Shown here piece by piece: positions 1,113 through 56,708 of a DNA stretch of 64,000 nt. Location: assembly GCA_964354805.1 (NCBI GenBank), contig CAYHBD010000016.1:64001-128000 (forward strand), given 5' to 3'. The notes beneath the pieces were generated by a model. The model worked only from the letters and a program-made list of their open reading frames with translations. It had not been told where the DNA came from and made no database searches. Both the position numbers and the translations under genes were made by a program. Source of the stretch: an uncultured archaeon (GTDB taxonomy: Archaea; Iainarchaeota; Iainarchaeia; Iainarchaeales; GCA-2688035). Within the stretch, counting starts at the first letter, position 1, and each line of letters begins with the position of its first letter.

Positions 1113-1463
1113 TTGAGCAGGGCATTGATTGCGGTTTTGGGCATTGGGAGAGGCACTTGGGGCCACATTGCGAGGCTTATTGCTGAAGAGCAGTGGGACC
1201 AGGCGCTGCTGGTTGGAAACGACTGGGGCAAGGAAAATTTCGCTCCAAGCAAAGAGGTTGACTGGATTATTGTAAACAACAGGGCCGGCTTCAACATTCT
1301 GAAGGATGCAATAAAGCAAAAGCTGCCTGATGTGGACGAACTGTGCATTTCCCTAATCAGTGGTTCTGGGAAAGAGCACATGGCATTGATTGCTGCTTTA
1401 AGGGAAGCAGGCAGGGAATTCAAAATCGTTGTTCTGACAGGCGAGGGAACAAAGTATTACTGA
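1113..1463 (+). CDS. Conserved hypothetical protein, possible stand-alone CARF-like Rossmann fold
   Basis: 116 aa, TTG start; LIAVLGIGRGTW and ISLISGSGKEHMAL. Confidence 0.7.
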   Translation: MSRALIAVLGIGRGTWGHIARLIAEEQWDQALLVGNDWGKENFAPSKEVDWIIVNNRAGFNILKDAIKQKLPDVDELCISLISGSGKEHMALIAALREAGREFKIVVLTGEGTKYY

Positions 1464-1479
1464 TTCCGGTTTTAATAGC

Positions 1480-1836
1480 ATGGACCTTATTTTTCTTGCA
1501 ATAGCAGTTGTCCTGATTGCCATCATTGTTTTTTTAATTAAGAAAATCTTTAAGCTGAGAGACCGGATTGATTCCCTGCGCTTTGACAAAAGCAGCCAGG
1601 CAGTAAAATACGGCAAAATGACAGAGCAGTTTATTCCGTTCACCGAGCAATTTCCTTTCCCTGCAGAGCGCTTTCGTTTCATTGGCAGCCCGATTGATGG
1701 CATTGCCTTTGACGAGGATGAAATAATTTTCTGCGAATTCAAAACAGCAGGGAGCACCCTGAGCGAAAAGCAGCGCAAAATAAAGGAATTGGTGGAAAGA
1801 AAAAAAGTGAAGTGGAAAGAATTCAATCTGCGCTAA
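1480..1836 (+). CDS. Membrane-anchored Holliday-junction-resolvase-like endonuclease (COG4741-type)
   Basis: N-terminal TM; GKMTEQF.PF, RFIGSPIDGIAF, EFKT PD-(D/E)xK motifs. Confidence 0.85.
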   Translation: MDLIFLAIAVVLIAIIVFLIKKIFKLRDRIDSLRFDKSSQAVKYGKMTEQFIPFTEQFPFPAERFRFIGSPIDGIAFDEDEIIFCEFKTAGSTLSEKQRKIKELVERKKVKWKEFNLR

Positions 1837-1926
1837 GCCTTTTTGCTCACGCAAAAATCCTTGGGAAAGACTGCCTAACGGCAAAGCCTTTTGCTTTGCA
1901 AAAGCCTTGGGACAACAGCCTTCGGC
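1835..1926 (+). repeat. Double-hairpin repeat, two tandem units
   Basis: AAGCCTTTTTGC.tcac.GCAAAAATCCTTGGG...TGCC.taac.GGCA then AAGCCTTTTGC.ttt.GCAAAAGCCTTGGG...GCCTTCGGC. Confidence 0.8.
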
Positions 1927-3278
1927 TAATCCTTTTTCTTTTCAAAAGGCGATACACCATCCCAGCAGTACAAGCACAGCTGGTTTTTTTCCTTTCCAAG
2001 GGCTTTAACAAAGTCCTCTAAAGTATTGTAAACAAGGCTGTCTGCTTCAATGTATTTTTTTATTTCTTCCACTGGCATTCTTCTTGCAGCCAGTTCTTCA
2101 TAGCTTCGCGTTGAAACCCCAAACCTGCAGGGGTGCATTAATGGCGGGCAGCTGATTCTTACATGAACCTCTTTTGCCCCTGCCTTTTTCAGCTCTTTCA
2201 CTTTCTCCCTTATCTGTGTTCCCCTCACAATAGAATCATCGCATAGCACAATTCTTTTTCCCTGAACAGCGTTTTTTAAAACACTCAGCTTTTTTTCAGC
2301 TTCTGAGTCCCTTTCCTCCTGCGTTGGCTGTGTGTAGCTCCTGTCCCCATACCTGTCAATCAGGAAAACGCTCTTCAACGGCACTTTGTTTTCCAAGTGG
2401 TATCCTTCAGCATGCCCAATGCCGCTGTTTGGAACAGGTGCAACAATATCAGCCTGCAGCTTTCCCTTATCCCTTTTCGCAAGCATTGCCCCCATATTGT
2501 TCCTTGCCTTGTCAACAGACAAGCTGTCAATAACAGAGTCAACGCTTGCAATGTAAGCCCACTCAAATGCGCAGAATGCAGTTCTGTCGCCTTTCATTTC
2601 CTTCAATGTTTTGAACCCGTTTTTGTCAATGAACAAGATTTCCCCCGGTCTTACATCCCTTTCAATTTCCATGCCCAGATTCTGCAATGCCCTGCTTTCA
2701 GAAGCAACGGCAAACTCTTTCCCGTTCTTTCCCAGAATCAATGGCTTGAATCCAAATCCGTCCCTTGCAGCAAAAATCCCTTTTGGGGTGAGAATAAGCA
2801 GGCTGTAGCTTCCCTCAATTTTCTTTGCCATTTGCTCAATGGCATCAACAAAATCGTTTCCCTGTACAACCAGCTTTGCAAGCAATTCAATCTGCGAATC
2901 CAGCCAAAAACTGTGCCCTTTTTTCTTCAGCTCTTCAATCAATTGTTCTGCATTAACAATGTTTCCGCTGAAGCAGATAGCGAAATCCCCAAGCTTGCTG
3001 TGCAGTGTCATTGGCTGCCTGTCCCTCAGGCTCACGTGCCCAATGCCAAAATTCCCCTGCAGTGTTTCAAAGTCCTCCCTTGTGAAAGTAGGGTCAACCC
3101 TGCCCTTGTGGCTCTGAATTATCACTTCCTTGCCATTGCTGGTTGCAATTCCGCAATACTGCTGGCCCCTGTGCTGCAGAAAATGCAGAGCCAGGTGAAT
3201 TCTCTTCACGCAAGGCTTATCAGAATAAAGGCCAAACAGGCCGCAATTATCTTTAGCTTTAACCAAAAAGCCCACCAT
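1926..3278 (-). CDS. purF: Amidophosphoribosyltransferase
   Basis: CGLFG after propeptide, LQHRGQ, CAFEWAY, DDSIVRGT PRT motif. Confidence 0.96.
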   Translation of the reverse strand: MVGFLVKAKDNCGLFGLYSDKPCVKRIHLALHFLQHRGQQYCGIATSNGKEVIIQSHKGRVDPTFTREDFETLQGNFGIGHVSLRDRQPMTLHSKLGDFAICFSGNIVNAEQLIEELKKKGHSFWLDSQIELLAKLVVQGNDFVDAIEQMAKKIEGSYSLLILTPKGIFAARDGFGFKPLILGKNGKEFAVASESRALQNLGMEIERDVRPGEILFIDKNGFKTLKEMKGDRTAFCAFEWAYIASVDSVIDSLSVDKARNNMGAMLAKRDKGKLQADIVAPVPNSGIGHAEGYHLENKVPLKSVFLIDRYGDRSYTQPTQEERDSEAEKKLSVLKNAVQGKRIVLCDDSIVRGTQIREKVKELKKAGAKEVHVRISCPPLMHPCRFGVSTRSYEELAARRMPVEEIKKYIEADSLVYNTLEDFVKALGKEKNQLCLYCWDGVSPFEKKKD

Positions 3279-3308
3279 AAAATAAAGAACCAGAAATATA
3301 TTTTAAAG

Positions 3309-4358
3309 CTATCCTATCCTGTACCGCAGCAATGCTGCAATGCCCCCCAAATTGAATAGCTGCTGGCCTGCCTCATGCTCGGCGTTTATTAAATGCACCT
3401 CTGCGCCCATTCTCTCCGCATCCTGCATTGCTTTTTCAGCCTGCTCCCTGTTCTGCAAAAAGAATTTATCGGCAACCAGCAATTGCTGCACTGCACCGAA
3501 TTCAATTGCTTTCTGCACCTGCAAAAAACCATACTCTGCCAGGCCGCTGTTTTTTCCAAGCTCAGCCAAAAACCTTTCCACCAACTGGGTTTCCTTAACC
3601 AGCTGCATGTTTTGCACAACCTTAACCAAAGTGCCGCCTTTCAGCATTTCCTGCAGACCTGTTACGCCAGTGCTGTTTGTTGCAGCAAAAAAGAACCGCA
3701 TTTCTTTTGGTTTTCCTTTTTCCTGCAGGAATTTTTCAAACCTGCTTCTTGTAAATCCCGGGCCAGCAACAACAACCTGCTTTGCCTTGGTTTCCTTTAT
3801 TTTTTCAGCAATCTCGGCAAAATATTTTTTTTCTGTTGATTCGTCAACAGCAAAGCGCTTCCCGCTCTTGCCGCTTGCAATAGTTGCTTTCTGCTGCAGT
3901 TCAAACTGCTTTAGCAATCCAAAAGTTGCCTGCTCGTCATCCAAAACAACAAGCAGAATATCTGGCTGCCTGCCTGCCTCAGCAGCAGCCCGTAATCTTT
4001 CAATCTGAAAGCGCAGCAGCTGCTTCTTCTGCACCTTCACTGGCGTGTGCAATGGCAGCTCCAGGCTATGGTGTGCTCCAATCTCAATCAATTCACTTGG
4101 CTTGCCTTGCACAATTGTTCCCTCAATCCTCAGCATTCCGCTGAATTTGTGGAATTCAACTGTTTCAACATTCAGTTCAACAAAAAGCTTTTCCCTTCTT
4201 GGCTTCTCCCCCTCATGCAGTGGCTTGATTTTTCTGTCAGTCTCCCCGCTAACCAAATCGCCTTTCTCAATTACCCGCTCCAAGTGCCAGAAATCATCAC
4301 TCGACTCAGGCACAACATGCAGGAAGCGATTCTTTTCATCAATTTTCAGAATTTTCAT
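3309..4358 (-). CDS. pelA: Pelota ribosome-rescue factor
   Basis: PESSDDFWHL, GAHHSLEL, VVAGPGF, LGGIAALLRY; ATG at 4358 preferred. Confidence 0.95.
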   Translation of the reverse strand: MKILKIDEKNRFLHVVPESSDDFWHLERVIEKGDLVSGETDRKIKPLHEGEKPRREKLFVELNVETVEFHKFSGMLRIEGTIVQGKPSELIEIGAHHSLELPLHTPVKVQKKQLLRFQIERLRAAAEAGRQPDILLVVLDDEQATFGLLKQFELQQKATIASGKSGKRFAVDESTEKKYFAEIAEKIKETKAKQVVVAGPGFTRSRFEKFLQEKGKPKEMRFFFAATNSTGVTGLQEMLKGGTLVKVVQNMQLVKETQLVERFLAELGKNSGLAEYGFLQVQKAIEFGAVQQLLVADKFFLQNREQAEKAMQDAERMGAEVHLINAEHEAGQQLFNLGGIAALLRYRIG

Positions 4359-22895: not shown

Positions 22896-23009
22896 AACTT
22901 AAGAATAAGTTGCGCTTTTTATTTAAAACTATGGGGGATGGTGGATTGCTCTCCTTATCAACTTCTATTGATTGCTTTTTAATTAATTTTACAGCATAAC
23001 TATCAGTAT

Positions 23010-24242
23010 ATGATTTCTCCTAACCTGTGCATCAGGTGCAAGGGCAAATTGCTGTGTGGCTTGAGCTACTGCCAGATTCTGCGAAAGTACAGCGAGCAGA
23101 GCAGGGCGGTTGCCGAAATTAAGGGCAATCGCTTCACTGGGAGCAGCCCGCCAAGCATTTTTGTCAGCTGGGGCAACTATCCCAATGTCCAGATCGCTCC
23201 CCTAAGTCCTACAGCTGTGATGGACAGCGCTTTGTTTGATTCTCCGGAGAAATGGTTCGGCCTGCCCCAAGAGCAAATAGTTTCCTTCAGGGAACAACTG
23301 CTTAGGAGCAACAAGCGCATCAATGTGAATGCCGCATCAAAGCCTTCTTATGATTTGTTTGAGATGCAGCAGCTGGTTATGGCTGCAAAGCCGACAGCAA
23401 TTGACGTGCAGCTGGAGCGCAAGCCAGTTCCCTTTCTTTCATTCCACGAAAGCGTTGCACCGCTTGGGCCAAGCGCCCCCTTGGTTAAAATGCGTTTGGA
23501 AGAGAACCCGAAAATAAACAGAAAAGTTGACAAAGCGGTTGCCGATACTGATTTGAAATCAAACGATGCATTGATTTTTTTATACGATGCCGGCTTTCCA
23601 ATAAGCACTCTGCAAAAGCTGTTAAGCGCGGGCACGCTCGGCATTGGAAAGAACAGGAAATTTGTCCCAACCAGGTTTTCGATTACCGCTGTTGACACAA
23701 ATATTGGAACTGAGTTAATAGAGGAAATAAAAAATTTTCAGCAAATTGGGGAAATCCAGTTTTTTTCATCGGAATATCTTGGAAACAGGTTCTTTATTCT
23801 TTTAATCCCTGCTGCTTGGGCTTTTGAGAATTTGGAGGCATGGGTTCCTGGCAGCATGTGGTATCAGGAAAAAGACCCATCAAAGATTGCGATAATGCAG
23901 GACCACGAATTTTATGATGGGAGAACGGACTATGCGGCAAATGTTGAGGGGGCTTATTATTCTGCGAGGTTGGCGGTTTGTGAGTATTTAAAAAAAATAA
24001 AGAGACAAGCAGCAGTTCTTGTTTTTCGGGAGATTACTCCCGAATATAATATTGGGCTTGGGGTTTGGGTAATCAGAGAAACTGTAAGGAACGCGCTTTC
24101 AAAGAAACCTTTAACTTTTTCTGATTTAGAGTTGGCTTTGGCTCTTGTTGAAAGAAAATTGCAGACCCCCTTCAAGCTGTGGAAAAAGGAGAGCAAACTT
24201 TTAGATTTTTTGCAACATCAGCGGCGGCTTTCTGATTTCTGA
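23010..24242 (+). CDS. nreA: Nre-family PCNA-interacting DNA repair protein
   Basis: CIRCKG.LLCG..YC, GSSPPSIFV, VPTRFSITAVD, GAYYSARL, C-terminal PIP box QRRLSDF. Confidence 0.92.
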   Translation: MISPNLCIRCKGKLLCGLSYCQILRKYSEQSRAVAEIKGNRFTGSSPPSIFVSWGNYPNVQIAPLSPTAVMDSALFDSPEKWFGLPQEQIVSFREQLLRSNKRINVNAASKPSYDLFEMQQLVMAAKPTAIDVQLERKPVPFLSFHESVAPLGPSAPLVKMRLEENPKINRKVDKAVADTDLKSNDALIFLYDAGFPISTLQKLLSAGTLGIGKNRKFVPTRFSITAVDTNIGTELIEEIKNFQQIGEIQFFSSEYLGNRFFILLIPAAWAFENLEAWVPGSMWYQEKDPSKIAIMQDHEFYDGRTDYAANVEGAYYSARLAVCEYLKKIKRQAAVLVFREITPEYNIGLGVWVIRETVRNALSKKPLTFSDLELALALVERKLQTPFKLWKKESKLLDFLQHQRRLSDF

Positions 24243-25509
24243 AAGGAACTTTCCAGCCTGAGATTTCGGGGTTAAATATGTAAACTTCTCTAATTATTGT
24301 TCCAAATGATTTCTTTTTACCAAATTCTCTGCGTTCGGTTGAGATAATGTTTGCTTGTTTTAGAATATCCAAGTAGTGCCTTAAACCGTGGGCCCACCTG
24401 CCCCCAAAGCTTTTTAATTTTGCTTCTTTGGCTAAATATTCTGCAAGTTTATAACGGTGGGTTTCCTTAAGCTGCATTATAGCCAACAAAACTTTTTTCA
24501 AGGATACTTTACTGGCTGATTTATGTGGGTAAACTCTGTCAAAAATATCTATTGCGTCATTTATTGAATTAACTGCCCCCCTATAACCATTTATGGATTC
24601 ATACAATTTTAACCATTTCTCCGTTTGTGGTTCAAACAATTGCATCCATTTTATTGTTTCATCCTTTGTTAATGAATTGCTCCAAAACCGCCAATATCTG
24701 CCACTTTGCTTTTCCATTTTGTGAAACTTTACACCTGTTTGCTCCAGAATTTGACAGATATCCTCTTGAAATTTTTTACTTGCCACACAAAATTCCACCT
24801 GGTTTTTCATTCCAACTCCAGCTTCAAAAGTTAATGCCCCAAGCGCAAATGATTTCCTCAATTCAATGGTCGATTTTTTGATAATTTGAGGTTCATTTAC
24901 CGTGTAGATTTTATTTCCATTGCAAAACCCAAATATTTTATGAAGATACCGGCCAAATATTTTATTATTGAATGCAATCGCCCACTCGTGTTCACTTTTG
25001 CTGCGAGCAGCATAGCTTAATCCAAACTCTTTTTCAACCCATTTTCCAAACGCATCTATGTTAGTTTTATGTTCATCAGTAATGCAGAAGAAATTTCCTG
25101 CTAATGTGCCATCCGCTGCATGGGCGCCAGCAATCTTGCAAAGGTTTTTTGTTAAAACTTTCGGTGCTTTAACTACTTTCTCTGGTGGCTGGTTCGTTTT
25201 AAGGAATTCTATTTTCTTTTGCACAAAGAATCGTTTTTCAGGTTTATTCGCCAAATTTAGCAATTGTTCAATAAAAACTAAAGGATAAAACTCTTTTCTG
25301 AGATAAACAATTCTTTCGGCAGTTGGCTTGGAAATACCAAATTTTTTCATTAAGTGTCTGCAAAGCTTGGCTTTGCTCAATCCTCTTGCTGCAATCTCGT
25401 CTATCAATTCACCAAGCGCCTGTTTTAATTCTTTTCCTTTCCCTGCAATCCATTTTCTCGGCGCGTCATCCAAAAGGGGGTCATGTAATGTAAATAGGTC
25501 CAACTGCAT
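24172..25509 (-). mobile_element. Free-standing HTH-LAGLIDADG-wHTH homing endonuclease gene (copy 1)
   Basis: LCKIAGAHAADG and SFALGALTFEAG motifs; no intein termini; AT-rich; paralogous to 55440-56708. Confidence 0.82.
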
Positions 25510-25556
25510 GCAAACATTGTATTTGACTCTTTTTAAGCTCCTTTGGAAAGAGTGGA

Positions 25557-25634
25557 GTTCCGCTGCTGCTTAAAAAGGAAAGCGCTCTGCTTGACAGGCT
25601 GCTGCACCAGCGAACACAGGTACAGTTTTCGTAG
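25557..25634 (+). pseudogene. Displaced old 3' end of nre
   Basis: KKESALLDRLLHQRTQVQFS* versus KKESKLLDFLQHQRRLSDF* (12/19 identical, ungapped); no start codon. Confidence 0.85.
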
Positions 25635-25709
25635 GGCTTGTGCGACTTTTATTTTACACCACTTTTTTTAAAGTTGATTGGTGTGCTGTAATATTAGTGA
25701 ATAAAATCC

Positions 25710-26504
25710 ATGAAAGTATCTGATTGGTATTTTCTCCCTGCTGGCATCATTTGGATTATTTCAAGTGGTTTTTTGGTTTTGGTTGGTTCTTTTAGTGGGG
25801 TTGAACTTTTTTCAATAATGGCTGCGTTAGCTCTTTTGTGGCGGCATTTTTCAGAGCGGGTTAGATTGGGGTTAACCTCTAAAAAGAAAGCTCGGGCAGT
25901 TTTTGTTGTCATAGTGGTATTGTCTGTCGTATATATCCTAGTTCTTTTTAATTATGAAAACACAAGAACTCAAACAATACTTGATTTCGTTAAAACTAAT
26001 TATGGTTTAAACCTAAATAGTGCTAACGCATTAACCATATCAGATTGTACCACCGACCAATGCGTCCTTGAAAAGTCAGATGCGTTTTCAAGTTTTTGTA
26101 AAAGCGTTTCTGAGGATACCCTTTGTGAGAAAGCGGGCGTTACAGATTTTTTTCTATCTAATACTTGTGCACGGTTTAAAGCAAATGTTGGGTTTGCCTG
26201 CGTTTCTTGGATGCCTGAGACTATTAATGAGAAATGGGCATGTGGAAAAATAACAGACGTAAAACTGCGTGAAGATTGTATTTTCAAAGCTTTTGAAGTG
26301 CAAGGAGACCGCTCTTTATATTGTGACCGAAAAAAAGCAATTAAGTCCAGCTCTGGGTTTAGCGTGCTTGATGTAACCGTCGAAAAAGCAAGAGAAATCT
26401 GTTACCGCTTATTAGCTATGACCGCCAATGAGAGCAGTTTCTGTAATCAGATATCAAATGAAAGCGAAAAGATGCTTTGTGTTGAGATGTCGAAAATTCA
26501 ATAA
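25710..26504 (+). CDS. Hypothetical membrane protein with Cys-rich extracellular domain
   Basis: 3 N-terminal hydrophobic segments, repeated C..I.....C motifs. Confidence 0.7.
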   Translation: MKVSDWYFLPAGIIWIISSGFLVLVGSFSGVELFSIMAALALLWRHFSERVRLGLTSKKKARAVFVVIVVLSVVYILVLFNYENTRTQTILDFVKTNYGLNLNSANALTISDCTTDQCVLEKSDAFSSFCKSVSEDTLCEKAGVTDFFLSNTCARFKANVGFACVSWMPETINEKWACGKITDVKLREDCIFKAFEVQGDRSLYCDRKKAIKSSSGFSVLDVTVEKAREICYRLLAMTANESSFCNQISNESEKMLCVEMSKIQ

Positions 26505-26624
26505 AATATGCCCCAAAGCGCGATTTAACATACCACTTGGGATCACATCTTTTGCTGCCACTCTTTTTAGCAAACTTTAAAAACTTATTTTGCTTTATTT
26601 TCTGTATATTACTTGGTTTTTTTT

Positions 26625-54403: not shown

Positions 54404-54847
54404 TTACCGCTTTCTCCCCATTATCATTACCGCATCTTGTATATCCCCAAAATAAGCGCCGAATTCATGTAACAGATCTTCAGTTTTGTGTAACCCCAAT
54501 GTTATCGGGTTTGTATTAATTACGCTTGTCATTTGTCCTCTCTTAACAAAATATTCCCCGCAAAGAACAGCCAGTTCGTATTTTCCTTCCCATATTTGTT
54601 TTCTCCTTTCCAAAAATTCGTCACGTTTCCTTTTGAGAACCGATAAATCTTTTTCTTCAAAGCAATCAACTGAGTATGCTTTGACATCGGTCCCAAGTTT
54701 TTCAGTAGCAGTTATCAATGCAGCAGCTTTTTGTCGCATTGTCCTCATTACGGCGATTTTCTTTGCCGTCGACAGGTTGAGGAATTTTTTTGAAAGCAAA
54801 TTTCTTGGAACTCTCCTGATGTAATTCCTTTTCTGCATAAAAATCAC
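54404..54847 (-). CDS. Hypothetical protein
   Basis: 147 aa AT-rich ORF; GTG overlaps the stop of the stranded ychF tail (alternative ATG 54838). Confidence 0.6.
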   Translation of the reverse strand: MIFMQKRNYIRRVPRNLLSKKFLNLSTAKKIAVMRTMRQKAAALITATEKLGTDVKAYSVDCFEEKDLSVLKRKRDEFLERRKQIWEGKYELAVLCGEYFVKRGQMTSVINTNPITLGLHKTEDLLHEFGAYFGDIQDAVMIMGRKR

Positions 54848-54921
54848 TAGTGGCTCAGCTGTATTTTCACGACATCGTTCATTTTCAAAGCATGTTCTTT
54901 CCCTAATTTTTGTTTGCTTCT
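54847..54921 (-). pseudogene. Displaced old 3' end of ychF
   Basis: RSKQKLGKEHALKMNDVVKIQLSH* versus RTGQKISDEYELRYDDVIKILLKH* (11/24 identical, ungapped, same stop position). Confidence 0.85.
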
Positions 54922-55000
54922 TCTTTTGAGTGCATCTATTCTATAGATGGGTTTAACTCTTTAAATTAGTTTCTAAAACGCCCTTGTCAATTTTTGTTTT

Positions 55001-55165
55001 CATCTCATCACCTCCCTTGGATTGAATTTTTTCTTAGGACTCTGCTTTTCTCGGCTTAAACCTTTCCCTGCCTTATTGCAGGTCGGCTTCGCCTAAAGGT
55101 TTAATGCCTCCAAAAGCAGCAGAGACGTCCACGAAAAAATTCATTAAATTGGAGGTGATTCGATG
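55001..55165. other. Long imperfect inverted repeat / structured element with outward-facing RBS+ATG at both ends
   Basis: ATCACCTCC/GGAGGTGAT, TGAATTTTTTC/GAAAAAATTCA, CTGCTTTT/AAAAGCAG, TTAAACCTTT/AAAGGTTTAA, two inner hairpins. Confidence 0.75.
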
Positions 55166-55306
55166 GATTTCAAAAAATTCGATTTTCCTCTTCCAACAGA
55201 GGAGGAAATAAGGGTTGTAAAAGAGATAGCAAAAGTTGCTTCAGAGGAGCTGGATGGAAGGGATATGTGGATTTTGCGGGAGTTCTTGGAGAGTGATTCC
55301 GAATGA
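55163..55306 (+). CDS. Small acidic hypothetical protein (47 aa, absent from ORF track)
   Basis: GGAGGTGA RBS; MDFKKFDFPLPTEEEIRVVKEIAKVASEELDGRDMWILREFLESDSE*. Confidence 0.6.
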   Translation: MDFKKFDFPLPTEEEIRVVKEIAKVASEELDGRDMWILREFLESDSE

Positions 55307-55439
55307 ATCACTCTTCTTCCACTTCCACAGGAAATCTTTCCGCATGCGCAGCTGACAGCGGAAGTTTTCATAAGGAAAAAGCAGCGGAAGCCCGCTCTCT
55401 TCCAAGGGTGTTTATAATGAGAAAAAAGGGGGTTTTATT

Positions 55440-56708
55440 ATGGGTGTTGAGGAGTTAGACTTTGATTTATTCGAATTGCATGATCCAAAAGACGACAAAA
55501 AGCCGTATTTTTGGACGAAAATTGGAGGCAAAGAGATTCAATCACTATTCGAAGATTTAGTTAATAATATTTGTAAAACAAAAAATGTGAATAAAAATGA
55601 GCTGGCTAAAGAATTAAGCAAAGAGCTGGGTTGCTGTGTTTCACTTTTGCAAAAATATTTTTATTCCAAAAGGGATCTTTATCCAATCCCTTTAATCAAC
55701 CGATTACTAGACCTGCTTGAGAATGAAAATAAAAAAATGCAAATGAAAAGTTTATTTTCTAAAAAGATTGAATACTTAAAGATCGGGGGCTCTAGCCAAA
55801 GACAAAGGGCGGTTAAATATTTGACGCCAGAACAGGCAAAACTTTGCGGAGCAATTGTTGCCGATGGGTGTTTAGTAAAATCTAAAGTTGGAGAGCACGG
55901 GATTGTCATTAGGGATTATTACAAGAAAGCATTAGCAAAGACAAACGCTTGGTTCAACCAAGCCCTTGGCATTTCTTCTGTTGTGAGAAAGGACAAAGGG
56001 AAACCAAGCCATTTTCTAAAAATCGATAACAAAATTGCTGCAAATTTTTTTAACAAATTTTTTGAGATACCATTTGGAAAAAAATCAGCAATTGTTAAGG
56101 AACCACAGATAATTAAACATTCCCCATACAGGCTAGACTTTGCAGAAGGGGCACTTCTGTTTGATGGAAGTGTTGAGTTGGACTACCTGGTTTCCTATGG
56201 GACAATCAGTAAAAAGTTAGCAGAAGATTTGCTCGAAATTCTAACCCTAAATGGCTTTGAAATTGAATTAAGATATTTCAAAACAACTGGTCTGTATAGA
56301 TTACGAACTAAAAGATTAACAAGGGAGCAAACAGACAAATGGATTGCCTTTTTTGGCAAAGACACTGAGAAAGGCAGTAAGCTTTATCAAATGACTTACG
56401 GCTTTCCAAATAGGGTGGGCTCTGTGGGTTATTTCATGTTTGCAATTTCAAATTTCTGCAATTTTGCAAACAGTTCAAAGATTTCAATTAAAGACGTCTT
56501 CGCCGCAATAAAAGAAAATAATTGCGTAACAAAGGCGACTTTGAAAGATATTCTAAGAATTGGAACAAGCACTCTTTACAAATATTTATGGATCCTAGAA
56601 AAAACAAACTCAATCAAAGCTGAAAAATTTAATGGCGGTGAAAATAGAGAAAACAAATATTCTTACAATCCAAATATTTGGGAATGGCGTGCGCCATCAA
56701 AGCTTTAA
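55440..56708 (+). mobile_element. Free-standing HTH-LAGLIDADG-wHTH homing endonuclease gene (copy 2)
   Basis: AKLCGAIVADG and DFAEGALLFDG motifs; shares DLF.LHDP N-terminus, YP, EPQIIK and NP.I..W..P C-terminus with copy 1. Confidence 0.85.

What the first reader, a model, noticed from the sequence alone, without database searches (positions are those of the whole stretch)
23010..25634. LAGLIDADG gene inserted at the nre 3' end with the old tail stranded behind it
The arrangement is nre (+) -> <- endonuclease, overlapping by 71 nt, then KKESALLDRLLHQRTQVQFS* in the nre orientation. This matches the live tail at 12/19 aa ungapped and uses host-like codons (CTG, CAC, CAG). The live tail retains an intact PIP box (QRRLSDF). 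The endonuclease has no intein termini, and no flanking intron is apparent.
Basis: partly seen in the sequence, partly recalled or inferred. Interest (0 to 1): 0.9.

Follow-up and report, generated by a model that had tools for sequence, protein, structure and literature searches.

The report
Homing endonuclease cassette replacing nreA's end
A selfish DNA-cutting gene has entered the DNA-repair gene nreA of a tiny DPANN archaeon, bringing a foreign copy of the gene's last 189 codons and leaving the last 20 native codons as a dead stub, a way of homing published so far only for yeast WHO elements and fungal mitochondria.

Summary

- **The endonuclease.** ORF 24172-25509(-) is a two-motif LAGLIDADG endonuclease. 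With an alignment, AlphaFold2 gives pLDDT 92.7, and the best fold matches are I-DmoI, I-Tsp061I and PI-PfuI. Both catalytic acidic residues are conserved in 45 of 45 homologues.
- **The uninvaded allele.** A MAG contig about 91% identical in DNA (L097) carries one. It matches the window through thrS and nre codons 1-222. It then loses similarity, and matches again exactly at the stranded tail 25572-25630 and at pdaD/rfcS.
- **What was imported.** nre codons 223-410 and the endonuclease gene came in together. Their G+C is 37-40%, against 50% for the native parts.
- **The stranded tail.** It matches the uninvaded allele's tail at 18/20 aa; the live tail matches at 13/20.
- **Tree conflict.** Trees of the 5' and 3' halves of nre disagree. 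The imported 3' module forms a 100/100 clade that the 5' half rejects.
- **Wider pattern.** In 14 of 14 informative DPANN loci the endonuclease family sits beside nre. Seven of those 14 also carry a stranded nre 3' fragment on the far side.
- **Second case.** A paralogue in this window has done the same to ychF.
- **Closest known.** Yeast WHO elements and fungal mitochondrial mobile ORFs. I found no prokaryotic report.
- **Not shown.** Cleavage activity and the target site are inferred.

The parts
23010..23675 (+). nreA codons 1-222, the native (vertically inherited) part
   Evidence: 90.5% nt identity (602/666) and about 95% aa identity to the uninvaded allele L097 1470-2135. G+C is 0.50.
23676..24242 (+). 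nreA codons 223-410 plus stop: the imported 3' module with the live PIP-box tail
   Evidence: Identity to L097 falls to about 55% aa from codon 223. G+C is 0.40. All 16 columns that separate 'clade A' from other family alleles lie at residues 230-391. The 3'-half tree gives clade A 100/100.
24172..25509 (-). Free-standing two-motif LAGLIDADG homing endonuclease gene (445 aa). The conserved core ends at about residue 424, right at the nre stop codon. The last 23 codons (24172-24242) are read-through on the antisense of the nre tail.
   Evidence: AlphaFold2 with alignment A2 gives pLDDT 92.7, with residues 426-445 below 50. Foldseek matches I-Tsp061I and I-DmoI at TM 0.65-0.68 by target length, and also PI-PfuI and the VMA inteins. 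D133 is conserved in 45/45 and E/D229 in 45/45. Most homologues cover only 95% of the query. The paralogue match ends at residue 424.
25510..25571 (-). 62-nt spacer upstream of the endonuclease start. It holds a TATA-like TTAAAAA at 25530-25536, about 24 nt before the ATG, which fits a leaderless archaeal transcript.
   Evidence: Read directly from the sequence. Promoter function is inferred, not tested.
25572..25634 (+). Stranded native nre tail (last 20 codons plus stop), with no start codon and a degenerate PIP box. Weak similarity may run back to 25527.
   Evidence: blastn to L097 2641-2699 at 81%. 18/20 aa to the P0111 tail. Profile E = 4.9e-5. G+C is 0.51. Of the nine codons that differ from L097, two change the amino acid, and both lie in the PIP box.
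25635..26562 (+). Extra 0.93 kb absent from the uninvaded allele. It carries a 264-aa membrane-protein gene (25710-26504). Whether it belongs to the same event is unknown.
   Evidence: In L097 the nre stop (2703) is followed about 10 nt later by the stretch that matches window 26563 onwards. There is a weak Pfam Saf_2TM hit, E = 6e-4, below the curated cut-off.

Best explanation
This is a homing genetic element of the tail-replacing kind. The mobile unit is a free-standing LAGLIDADG endonuclease gene together with a cleavage-resistant version of the 3' part of its host gene, nreA.

Proposed mechanism (inferred):
1. The endonuclease cuts naive nreA alleles somewhere between codons 223 and 390.
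2. The break is repaired from an element-bearing allele. The left crossover falls inside nre; here it lies at codon 222/223.
3. The donor's 3' nre module and the endonuclease gene are copied in.
4. The right end is joined at or within the recipient's own tail.
5. The recipient's last codons are therefore pushed beyond the endonuclease gene, where they are no longer translated and decay.

nreA stays whole, keeps a PCNA-binding PIP tail, and is now a chimera that the resident endonuclease should not cut.

Shown here:
- the LAGLIDADG fold and intact catalytic residues;
- the breakpoint at codon 222/223;
- the foreign origin and low G+C of the 3' module and the endonuclease gene;
- the native identity of the stranded tail;
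- the conflict between the 5' and 3' trees;
- the same architecture in distant DPANN lineages and at ychF in this window.

Inferred only:
- endonuclease activity;
- the position of the cut;
- resistance of the imported module;
- whether the right-hand junction forms by homology with a donor's stranded fragment (as proposed for WHO elements) or by end joining.
For: 1. **Enzyme.** The AlphaFold2 model has pLDDT 92.7 and pTM 0.89. The top PDB matches are all LAGLIDADG endonucleases. Motif 1, K[IL]xGAHAADG, has an invariant Asp, and motif 2, GALTFEAG, has Glu or Asp in 45/45.
2. **Uninvaded allele L097.** Its order is thrS, nre, pdaD region, rfcS, with no endonuclease gene. DNA identity to the window is 91.0% in thrS and 90.5% in nre codons 1-222, then almost none. 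It resumes at 81% at the stranded tail, 90.8% at pdaD and 87% at rfcS. The protein alignment places the breakpoint at codon 222/223.
3. **Composition.** G+C is 0.50 in native nre, 0.40 in the imported module, 0.37 in the endonuclease gene, 0.51 in the stranded tail and 0.50 in the native 3' part of L097.
4. **Tails.** Stranded tail against the P0111 tail is 18/20 aa; live tail against it is 13/20.
5. **Recombination.**
   - In the 3'-half tree, WIN, G001, G012, G013 and G011 form a 100/100 clade on a long stem.
   - In the 5'-half tree there is no such clade, and G013 joins its own genus at 93/91.
   - AU tests: on the 3' half, holding G013's nre with that of its genus-mate G022 is rejected at p = 0.0002. 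On the 5' half, holding clade A together is rejected at p = 0.018.
   - All 16 diagnostic columns lie at residues 230-391.
6. **Generality.**
   - There are more than 100 homologues at 39-67% identity in DPANN archaea.
   - In 14 of 14 informative genome loci the endonuclease gene abuts nre, 7 convergent and 7 in tandem.
   - Seven of those 14 loci, plus the window, hold a stranded nre 3' fragment of 17-76 aa. It is always on the far side of the endonuclease gene and on the nre strand (E from 2e-22 to 0.057).
   - The stranded fragments of L083 and L084 abut rfcS, as nre does in endonuclease-less genomes.
   - The stranded fragment of L084 matches its nearest endonuclease-less relative at 47/56, against 34/55 for its live tail.
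7. **Second case in this window.**
   - The paralogue 55440-56708(+) sits just past the ychF stop.
   - The native ychF tail is stranded at 54847-54963(-). It shares the final RSKQKLGKEHALKMNDVVKIQLSH with the closest relative P0227.
   - The live ychF tail matches relatives that are only about 64% identical overall.
   - The ychF protein is about 97% identical to P0227 until about residue 280 and then falls away.
8. **Assembly.** Junctions are bridged by contigs of independent runs.
Against: - No cleavage assay exists, and the target site is unknown.
- The closest endonuclease homologue is only 67% identical (G001 and P0002), so no donor has been identified.
- G001 has the same arrangement but no detectable stranded tail.
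- Stranded fragments differ in length from 17 to 76 aa, so a single fixed junction is not shown.
- Only 20 codons survive here out of the 188 that were displaced.
- 'Clade A' was recognised from similarity before the trees were built, so the AU p-values and the diagnostic columns are partly post hoc.
- L097 is a 4.9-kb MAG contig. I take it to be a close relative on its 91% DNA identity alone.
Confidence: 0.85

Rival explanations
1. There were two unrelated events. Ordinary homologous recombination (gene transfer) replaced the 3' half of nre, and a LAGLIDADG gene settled separately in the variable spacer between nre and rfcS. The stub is a by-product of a sloppy recombination, and the endonuclease did not cause it.
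For: The nre-rfcS spacer is a hot spot with different cargo in every relative: PIN/antitoxin genes, Fic, an integrase, surface proteins. Clade-A 3' modules occur without an endonuclease gene in G012, G013 and G011.
Against: - The imported nre module and the endonuclease gene are contiguous and share a low G+C of 0.37-0.40.
- The endonuclease family is found beside nre in 14 of 14 informative loci across DPANN phyla, in two orientations, and 7 of those loci also hold a stranded fragment.
- A paralogue shows the same three-part layout at a different gene, ychF.
- Endonuclease-less resistant alleles are expected from the known gain-and-loss cycle of homing endonuclease genes (named in the abstract of PMC13619312).
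Confidence: 0.07
2. The 445-aa protein is a domesticated LAGLIDADG-fold DNA-binding regulator, like WhiA, and not an active nuclease. Its association with nre is functional rather than selfish.
For: WhiA chains appear among the fold matches (8dy9_I, 3hyi). The protein has extra helical N- and C-terminal domains. A JGI record names one homologue an XRE-family regulator.
Against: - Both metal-binding acidic residues are kept in 45/45 sequences. That WhiA lacks them is from my own knowledge and was not tested here.
- The gene is patchily distributed: present in G001, not found in the 2.6 kb downstream of nre on the G012 contig (same genus), and absent from the L097 locus.
- Its orientation relative to nre flips between lineages.
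- It is always accompanied by chimeric nre genes and stubs.
Confidence: 0.05
3. An integrase-type element inserted into the 3' end of nre and carried a replacement gene end in its attachment site, as tRNA-targeting integrative elements do.
For: The duplication of a gene's 3' end flanking an insert resembles attL/attR. An integrase fragment lies downstream of nre in G012.
Against: - There is no integrase in the 1.4-kb insert.
- The two tails are only 30/57 nt identical, so they are not att repeats.
- The replaced tract is 567 nt of homologous but diverged coding sequence, with a crossover inside the gene.
Confidence: 0.02
4. The layout is an assembly chimera of two strains in the metagenome.
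For: MAG contigs can be chimeric, and G+C changes abruptly at 23676.
Against: - Contigs from separate runs and studies bridge the junctions at 100% identity.
- The same layout occurs in G001 and in seven other public MAG loci.
Confidence: 0.01

Closest known systems
WHO elements of Torulaspora and Lachancea yeasts, which target FBA1 (Coughlan et al. 2020, PMC7282813; Osborne et al. 2026, bioRxiv 10.64898/2026.08.13.744650)
   Same: - The unit is a LAGLIDADG endonuclease gene plus a resistant version of the host gene's 3' part.
- Homing replaces the 3' end of an intact, functional host gene, with no intron and no intein splicing.
[quoted passage not shown]
- The 5' and 3' parts of the host gene give contradictory trees.

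These features are stated in PMC7282813 section 10 and seen here.
   Different: - These are archaeal (DPANN) chromosomes, not yeast nuclei.
- The hosts are nreA and ychF.
- The protein shows no Hint or zinc-finger parts. It has a helical N-terminal domain and a winged-helix-like C-terminal domain, so the likeness is in mechanism, not ancestry.
- The endonuclease gene is convergent or tandem and may overlap the host's stop codon.
- No tandem clusters of older endonuclease genes were found in the spacers.
- Cleavage has not been tested.
Mobile endonuclease ORFs (mORFs) of fungal mitochondria: Allomyces macrogynus atp6, and Glomus atp6, atp9, cox2 and nad3 (Beaudet et al. 2013, PMC3630166, which cites the Allomyces case as its reference 48)
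   Same: - A LAGLIDADG (or GIY-YIG) ORF is inserted near the 3' end of a conserved gene.
- A foreign inserted C-terminus lies upstream of the ORF and the native C*-terminus downstream.
- The native copy is closest to the sister species (91-98% nt) and the inserted copy is distant (64-81%).

The contrast is the same here: 81% nt for the stranded tail against 53% (30/57 nt) for the live tail.
   Different: - Those are organellar genomes.
- The mORF is usually in phase with, and co-transcribed with, the host gene. Here it is on the opposite strand with its own promoter-like spacer.
- The imported tract here is much longer (189 codons).
Free-standing homing endonuclease genes of T-even phages (seg and mob genes, 'intronless homing'); recalled from my own knowledge, not checked here
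   Same: The endonuclease gene lies between genes, cuts the endonuclease-less allele in a neighbouring gene, and spreads together with co-converted flanking markers.
   Different: Those enzymes are GIY-YIG or HNH. No replacement gene end and no stranded fragment are part of that unit.

Membership tests
LAGLIDADG homing endonucleases (two-motif, monomeric) | Two LAGLIDADG helices, each ending in an acidic metal-binding residue | tested here: met
   Motif 1 is LCKIAGAHAADG (D133 in 45/45). Motif 2 is FALGALTFEAG (E229: E in 40, D in 5, of 45).
LAGLIDADG homing endonucleases (two-motif, monomeric) | The alpha-beta-beta-alpha-beta-beta-alpha pseudo-dimeric fold | tested here: met
   The model has pLDDT 92.7. 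Foldseek gives probability 1.00 for I-Tsp061I (TM by target 0.67), I-DmoI (0.65-0.68), PI-PfuI and the VMA inteins. Pfam-A itself gives no hit for this protein, but some homologues carry PF14528.
LAGLIDADG homing endonucleases (two-motif, monomeric) | Site-specific double-strand cleavage of the allele that lacks the gene | not testable with these tools
   This needs the purified protein and naive (L097-type) against chimeric nre substrates.
Tail-replacing homing elements (WHO-like or mORF-like) | The endonuclease gene lies immediately beside an intact host gene, not inside an intron or intein | tested here: met
   It is on the opposite strand, and its core ends at the nre stop. In 14 of 14 informative loci it abuts nre.
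Tail-replacing homing elements (WHO-like or mORF-like) | The host gene's 3' part is foreign and its 5' part native, with a discrete breakpoint | tested here: met
   About 95% aa identity falls to about 55% at codon 222/223 against L097. G+C drops from 0.50 to 0.40. The 5' and 3' trees conflict.
Tail-replacing homing elements (WHO-like or mORF-like) | The displaced native 3' fragment lies beyond the endonuclease gene and is closest to uninvaded relatives | tested here: met
   18/20 aa and 49/63 nt to the L097 tail, against 13/20 and 30/57 for the live tail. The same holds for L084 (47/56 against 34/55) and for ychF.
Tail-replacing homing elements (WHO-like or mORF-like) | Allele-specific cleavage, with the imported 3' part conferring resistance | not testable with these tools
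   Inferred only.
WHO/HO protein family (by homology) | Intein-derived Hint segments plus a C-terminal zinc finger around the LAGLIDADG core | tested here: not met
   Residues 1-110 are helical and residues 315-425 form helices plus a beta-hairpin. The well-superposed matches to inteins (rmsd 3-6) span only about 165-210 columns; the longer alignments have rmsd 16-21. This is therefore an analogue, not a member.
NreA (host gene) | [quoted passage not shown] | tested here: met
   Pfam E = 6e-91 and 2.9e-38. The tail is QRRLSDF*. The PIP motif is required for NreA function in Haloferax volcanii (PMC4929162).

The most novel reading that the evidence does not exclude
DPANN archaea harbour a widespread class of homing elements that is distinct from introns and inteins and analogous to yeast WHO elements. 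It is a family of more than 100 large LAGLIDADG endonucleases dedicated to nreA, with paralogues dedicated to ychF and possibly other genes. These spread by swapping the 3' part of the host gene. They make a DNA-repair gene evolve as a 5'/3' chimera across genera and leave resistant, endonuclease-less alleles behind. If so, tail-replacing homing arose independently in archaea and eukaryotes, and it is a general way for selfish nucleases to enter essential or conserved genes without any splicing.
Probability: 0.7. Interest if true: 0.8.

Novelty: new variant of a known kind. Interest (0 to 1): 0.75.

Why it matters
- Tail-replacing homing was named a third category of homing element only in 2020-2026, and only for yeasts. 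The older fungal mitochondrial cases are treated as curiosities. Finding the same logic in archaeal chromosomes shows that the strategy is general and has arisen more than once. The evidence is a dedicated endonuclease family found beside one host gene in 14 of 14 informative loci from several DPANN lineages.
- It explains why nreA, and ychF, have conflicting 5' and 3' histories. It also explains why the 'closest relatives' can mislead about which gene end is native.
- It warns annotators that short start-less gene-tail copies are footprints of invasion.
- It offers a set of natural, probably long-site meganucleases, each with an easily predicted pair of target (naive) and immune (chimeric) sequences.
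- It makes an arms-race hypothesis between the nuclease and its target site directly testable in vitro.

Tried and rejected
- Pfam, NCBIfam and PDB sequence searches of the endonuclease gave nothing significant. The best results were a helix-hairpin-helix hit at E = 0.027 and PI-PfuI at 0.028.
- A single-sequence AlphaFold2 model was useless, with pLDDT 40.
The live tail equals the tails of G012, G013 and G011, while the stranded tail looked like genus g5. This was resolved by the partition trees and by L097.
- No stranded nre tail was detected in G001, L073, L081, L072, L078, L079 or L082.
- No stranded fragments were found beside more distant homologues (about 30% identity) that sit next to rtcB, ilvD, aroC and gatE.
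- No decayed older endonuclease genes lie in the 0.3-1.5-kb spacers of L075, L076, L077, L083 and L084, so there are no WHO-like clusters.
- The tRNA-like element after the fourth paralogue (L004) is not a stranded copy of the tRNA-Lys in front of it.
- The contig of the closest ychF relative (P0227) could not be fetched as DNA, so the ychF breakpoint is known only at protein level.
- No nre more than 78% identical overall exists in the protein collection, so no allele from the same species was available.
- Parts of the stretch without contig cover in runs X1-X4 (for example 23535-23661 in X1-X3) are not evidence of anything.
- For L083 the nearest relative by its 5' part (P0220) matches neither tail well. 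By eye, from the alignment, its stranded fragment matches L033 at 47/60 and its live tail at 31/60.
Full report
**Observation.** The window is G000:C16:64001-128000 of a 1.38-Mb, 49-contig archaeal MAG. Homologues of its proteins are labelled Candidatus Diapherotrites or Iainarchaeum, which belong to DPANN.
- nre is 23010-24242(+), with Pfam Nre_N and Nre_C.
- A 445-aa ORF lies at 24172-25509(-) and overlaps nre by 71 nt.
- 25572-25634(+) reads KKESALLDRLLHQRTQVQFS*.
- A profile built from the tails of 29 relatives finds this stub at E = 4.9e-5. It is the only hit outside real nre genes in the window and 35 loci.

**The endonuclease.**
- Sequence-family searches were blank or marginal, and a single-sequence fold failed.
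- A database search found more than 100 homologues at 39-67% identity and 420-450 aa, all from DPANN archaea. A few carry PF14528.
- With a 45-sequence alignment (A2), AlphaFold2 gave pLDDT 92.7 and pTM 0.89.
- Foldseek returned LAGLIDADG enzymes: I-Tsp061I, I-DmoI, PI-PfuI and the endonuclease domains of VMA inteins.
- The two catalytic acidic residues, D133 and E/D229, are kept in 45/45 sequences.
- Residues 426-445 are disordered. Most homologues, and the in-genome paralogue, stop matching at about residue 424, which is the codon abutting the nre stop. The 71-nt overlap is therefore a read-through extension, and the gene proper sits just past nre.

**A misleading first comparison.** Among 40 GTDB relatives, the live tail is identical or nearly identical to the tails of the four most similar nre genes: G001, which also has the endonuclease gene in the same place, and G012, G013 and G011, which lack it. 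The stub looked more like tails of another genus.

**Recombination in nre.**
- Segment-wise identities showed that these five genes ('clade A') are set apart only in their 3' part.
- The ML tree of residues 216-410 gives clade A 100/100 support on a long stem.
- The tree of residues 1-215 has no such clade and puts G013 with its own genus at 93/91.
- AU tests reject the alternative groupings, with p = 0.0002 and 0.018.
- With 11 clade-A and 10 other alleles, all 16 diagnostic columns lie at residues 230-391.
- Caveat: the group was noticed before it was tested.

**The uninvaded allele.**
- The most similar nre anywhere, P0111 (78% overall), has a non-clade-A 3' part that ends KKESALLDRLLHQRTLPQFS.
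- Its contig, L097, has thrS, nre, then about 750 nt with no called gene, then rfcS, and no endonuclease gene.
- blastn against the window gives:
  - thrS 91.0%;
  - nre 1470-2135 against 23009-23674, 90.5%;
  - then one weak 98-nt hit;
  - then 2641-2699 against 25572-25630 (the stub), 81%;
  - then pdaD 90.8% and rfcS 87.4%.
- The protein alignment shows about 95% identity to residue 222 and about 55% after it.
- G+C is 0.50 (nre 5' part), 0.40 (nre 3' part), 0.37 (endonuclease gene), 0.51 (stub) and 0.50 (native 3' part of L097) (the drop is also visible).
- The stub differs from L097's tail in nine codons, of which two change the amino acid. Both hit the PIP box (L to Q, P to V). This fits recent release from selection.

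So nre codons 223-410 and the endonuclease gene entered together. Native codons 223-390 were lost, and the last 20 native codons were left behind.

**Generality.**
- A scan of species-representative genomes gave 26 loci.
- In all 14 informative loci where the endonuclease is at least 40% identical, nre is its neighbour. Seven are convergent and seven tandem.
- An Nre_C profile finds stranded nre 3' fragments in L083 (60 aa, E = 2e-22), L084 (57 aa), L077 (76 aa), L074 (72 aa), L076 (49 aa), L075 (28 aa, E = 0.017) and L085 (17 aa, E = 0.057).
- Every one lies on the far side of the endonuclease gene and on the nre strand.
- The fragments in L083 and L084 abut rfcS, just as nre does in endonuclease-less genomes.
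- The L084 fragment matches the nearest endonuclease-less relative at 47/56, against 34/55 for the live tail.

**A second case in the same window.**
- A 32%-identical paralogue at 55440-56708(+) abuts the ychF stop.
- Beyond its start, on the ychF strand, lies ...RSKQKLGKEHALKMNDVVKIQLSH*. Its stop codon overlaps the start of the next gene.
- This stub equals the tail of the closest ychF relative, P0227, over the final RSKQKLGKEHALKMNDVVKIQLSH.
- The live ychF tail resembles relatives that are only about 64% identical overall.
- ychF is about 97% identical to P0227 up to about residue 280 and then declines.
- I found this before consulting earlier notes. An earlier follow-up of this scan had reached the same reading for ychF.

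**Assembly.** Contigs from runs of different studies bridge the critical junctions at 100% identity. A more divergent groundwater population also carries the chimeric junction and the endonuclease gene.

**Mechanism and comparison.**
- The layout, the chimeric host gene, the conflicting trees and the stranded fragment are the defining features of yeast WHO elements (PMC7282813, section 10; 2026 preprint).
- They are also the features of fungal mitochondrial mORF 'gene hybrids' (PMC3630166).
- The archaeal protein lacks the Hint and zinc-finger parts of WHO proteins, so it is an analogue rather than a relative.
- Full-text searches found no report of such elements in archaea or bacteria. The library is limited to open-access papers and bioRxiv.
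- NreA needs its C-terminal PIP motif for repair in Haloferax (PMC4929162). That explains why a replacement tail must come with the invader.

**Open points.** These are nuclease activity, the cut site (between codons 223 and 390; the common boundary near 222-230 is my best guess), the donor lineage, and how the right-hand junction forms.

Noticed in passing
window 54847-57889: Second tail-replacing cassette. ychF (56705-57889, -) has an imported tail. A paralogous LAGLIDADG gene lies at 55440-56708(+). The native ychF tail is stranded at 54847-54963(-), and its TAG overlaps the GTG start of the next gene. The stub shares the final RSKQKLGKEHALKMNDVVKIQLSH with the closest relative P0227.
   Followed up: yes
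window 25635-26562: A 0.93-kb stretch with a 264-aa membrane-protein gene (weak Saf_2TM hit, below the curated cut-off) is absent from the otherwise collinear uninvaded contig L097. It may be a separate insertion next to the stub, or a deletion in L097.
   Followed up: partly
L042-L070 (ychF loci of relatives): Next to the RFC large-subunit gene, relatives carry one of two deeply different ychF types (57-79% or 44-47% identity to the window's). The two types are mixed within one family, which suggests whole-gene replacement at this locus.
   Followed up: no
L004 (G000:C18:1-2406): The fourth LAGLIDADG paralogue lies between tRNA-Lys (156-230) and a tRNA-Phe-like sequence (1275-1339). Rfam matches the latter only over model positions 6-65, ARAGORN does not call it, and its 5' acceptor strand does not pair with its 3' end.
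   Followed up: partly
L086, L087, L092, L093: More distant homologues (about 30% identity) in other DPANN MAGs sit right at the ends of other conserved genes: ilvD-like, aroC-like, rtcB-like (55-nt convergent overlap) and gatE-like. No stranded fragments were detected there.
   Followed up: partly
L036 (G012:C136) 1445-4040: Downstream of the endonuclease-less clade-A nre of G012 lie a restriction-like ORF, a Fic-like gene and a tyrosine-integrase-like gene. The nre-rfcS spacer is a general hot spot for mobile DNA in this family.
   Followed up: no
window 23026-25277, run X4: In a groundwater metagenome, contig pieces are about 91-93% identical to the window upstream of 23600, 98-99% identical at 23643-24423 (the imported nre module and the first part of the endonuclease gene) and 91-97% identical further into the endonuclease gene. 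This hints that the nre-proximal part of the cassette is younger than the strain divergence. The pieces are short and of low depth.
   Followed up: partly
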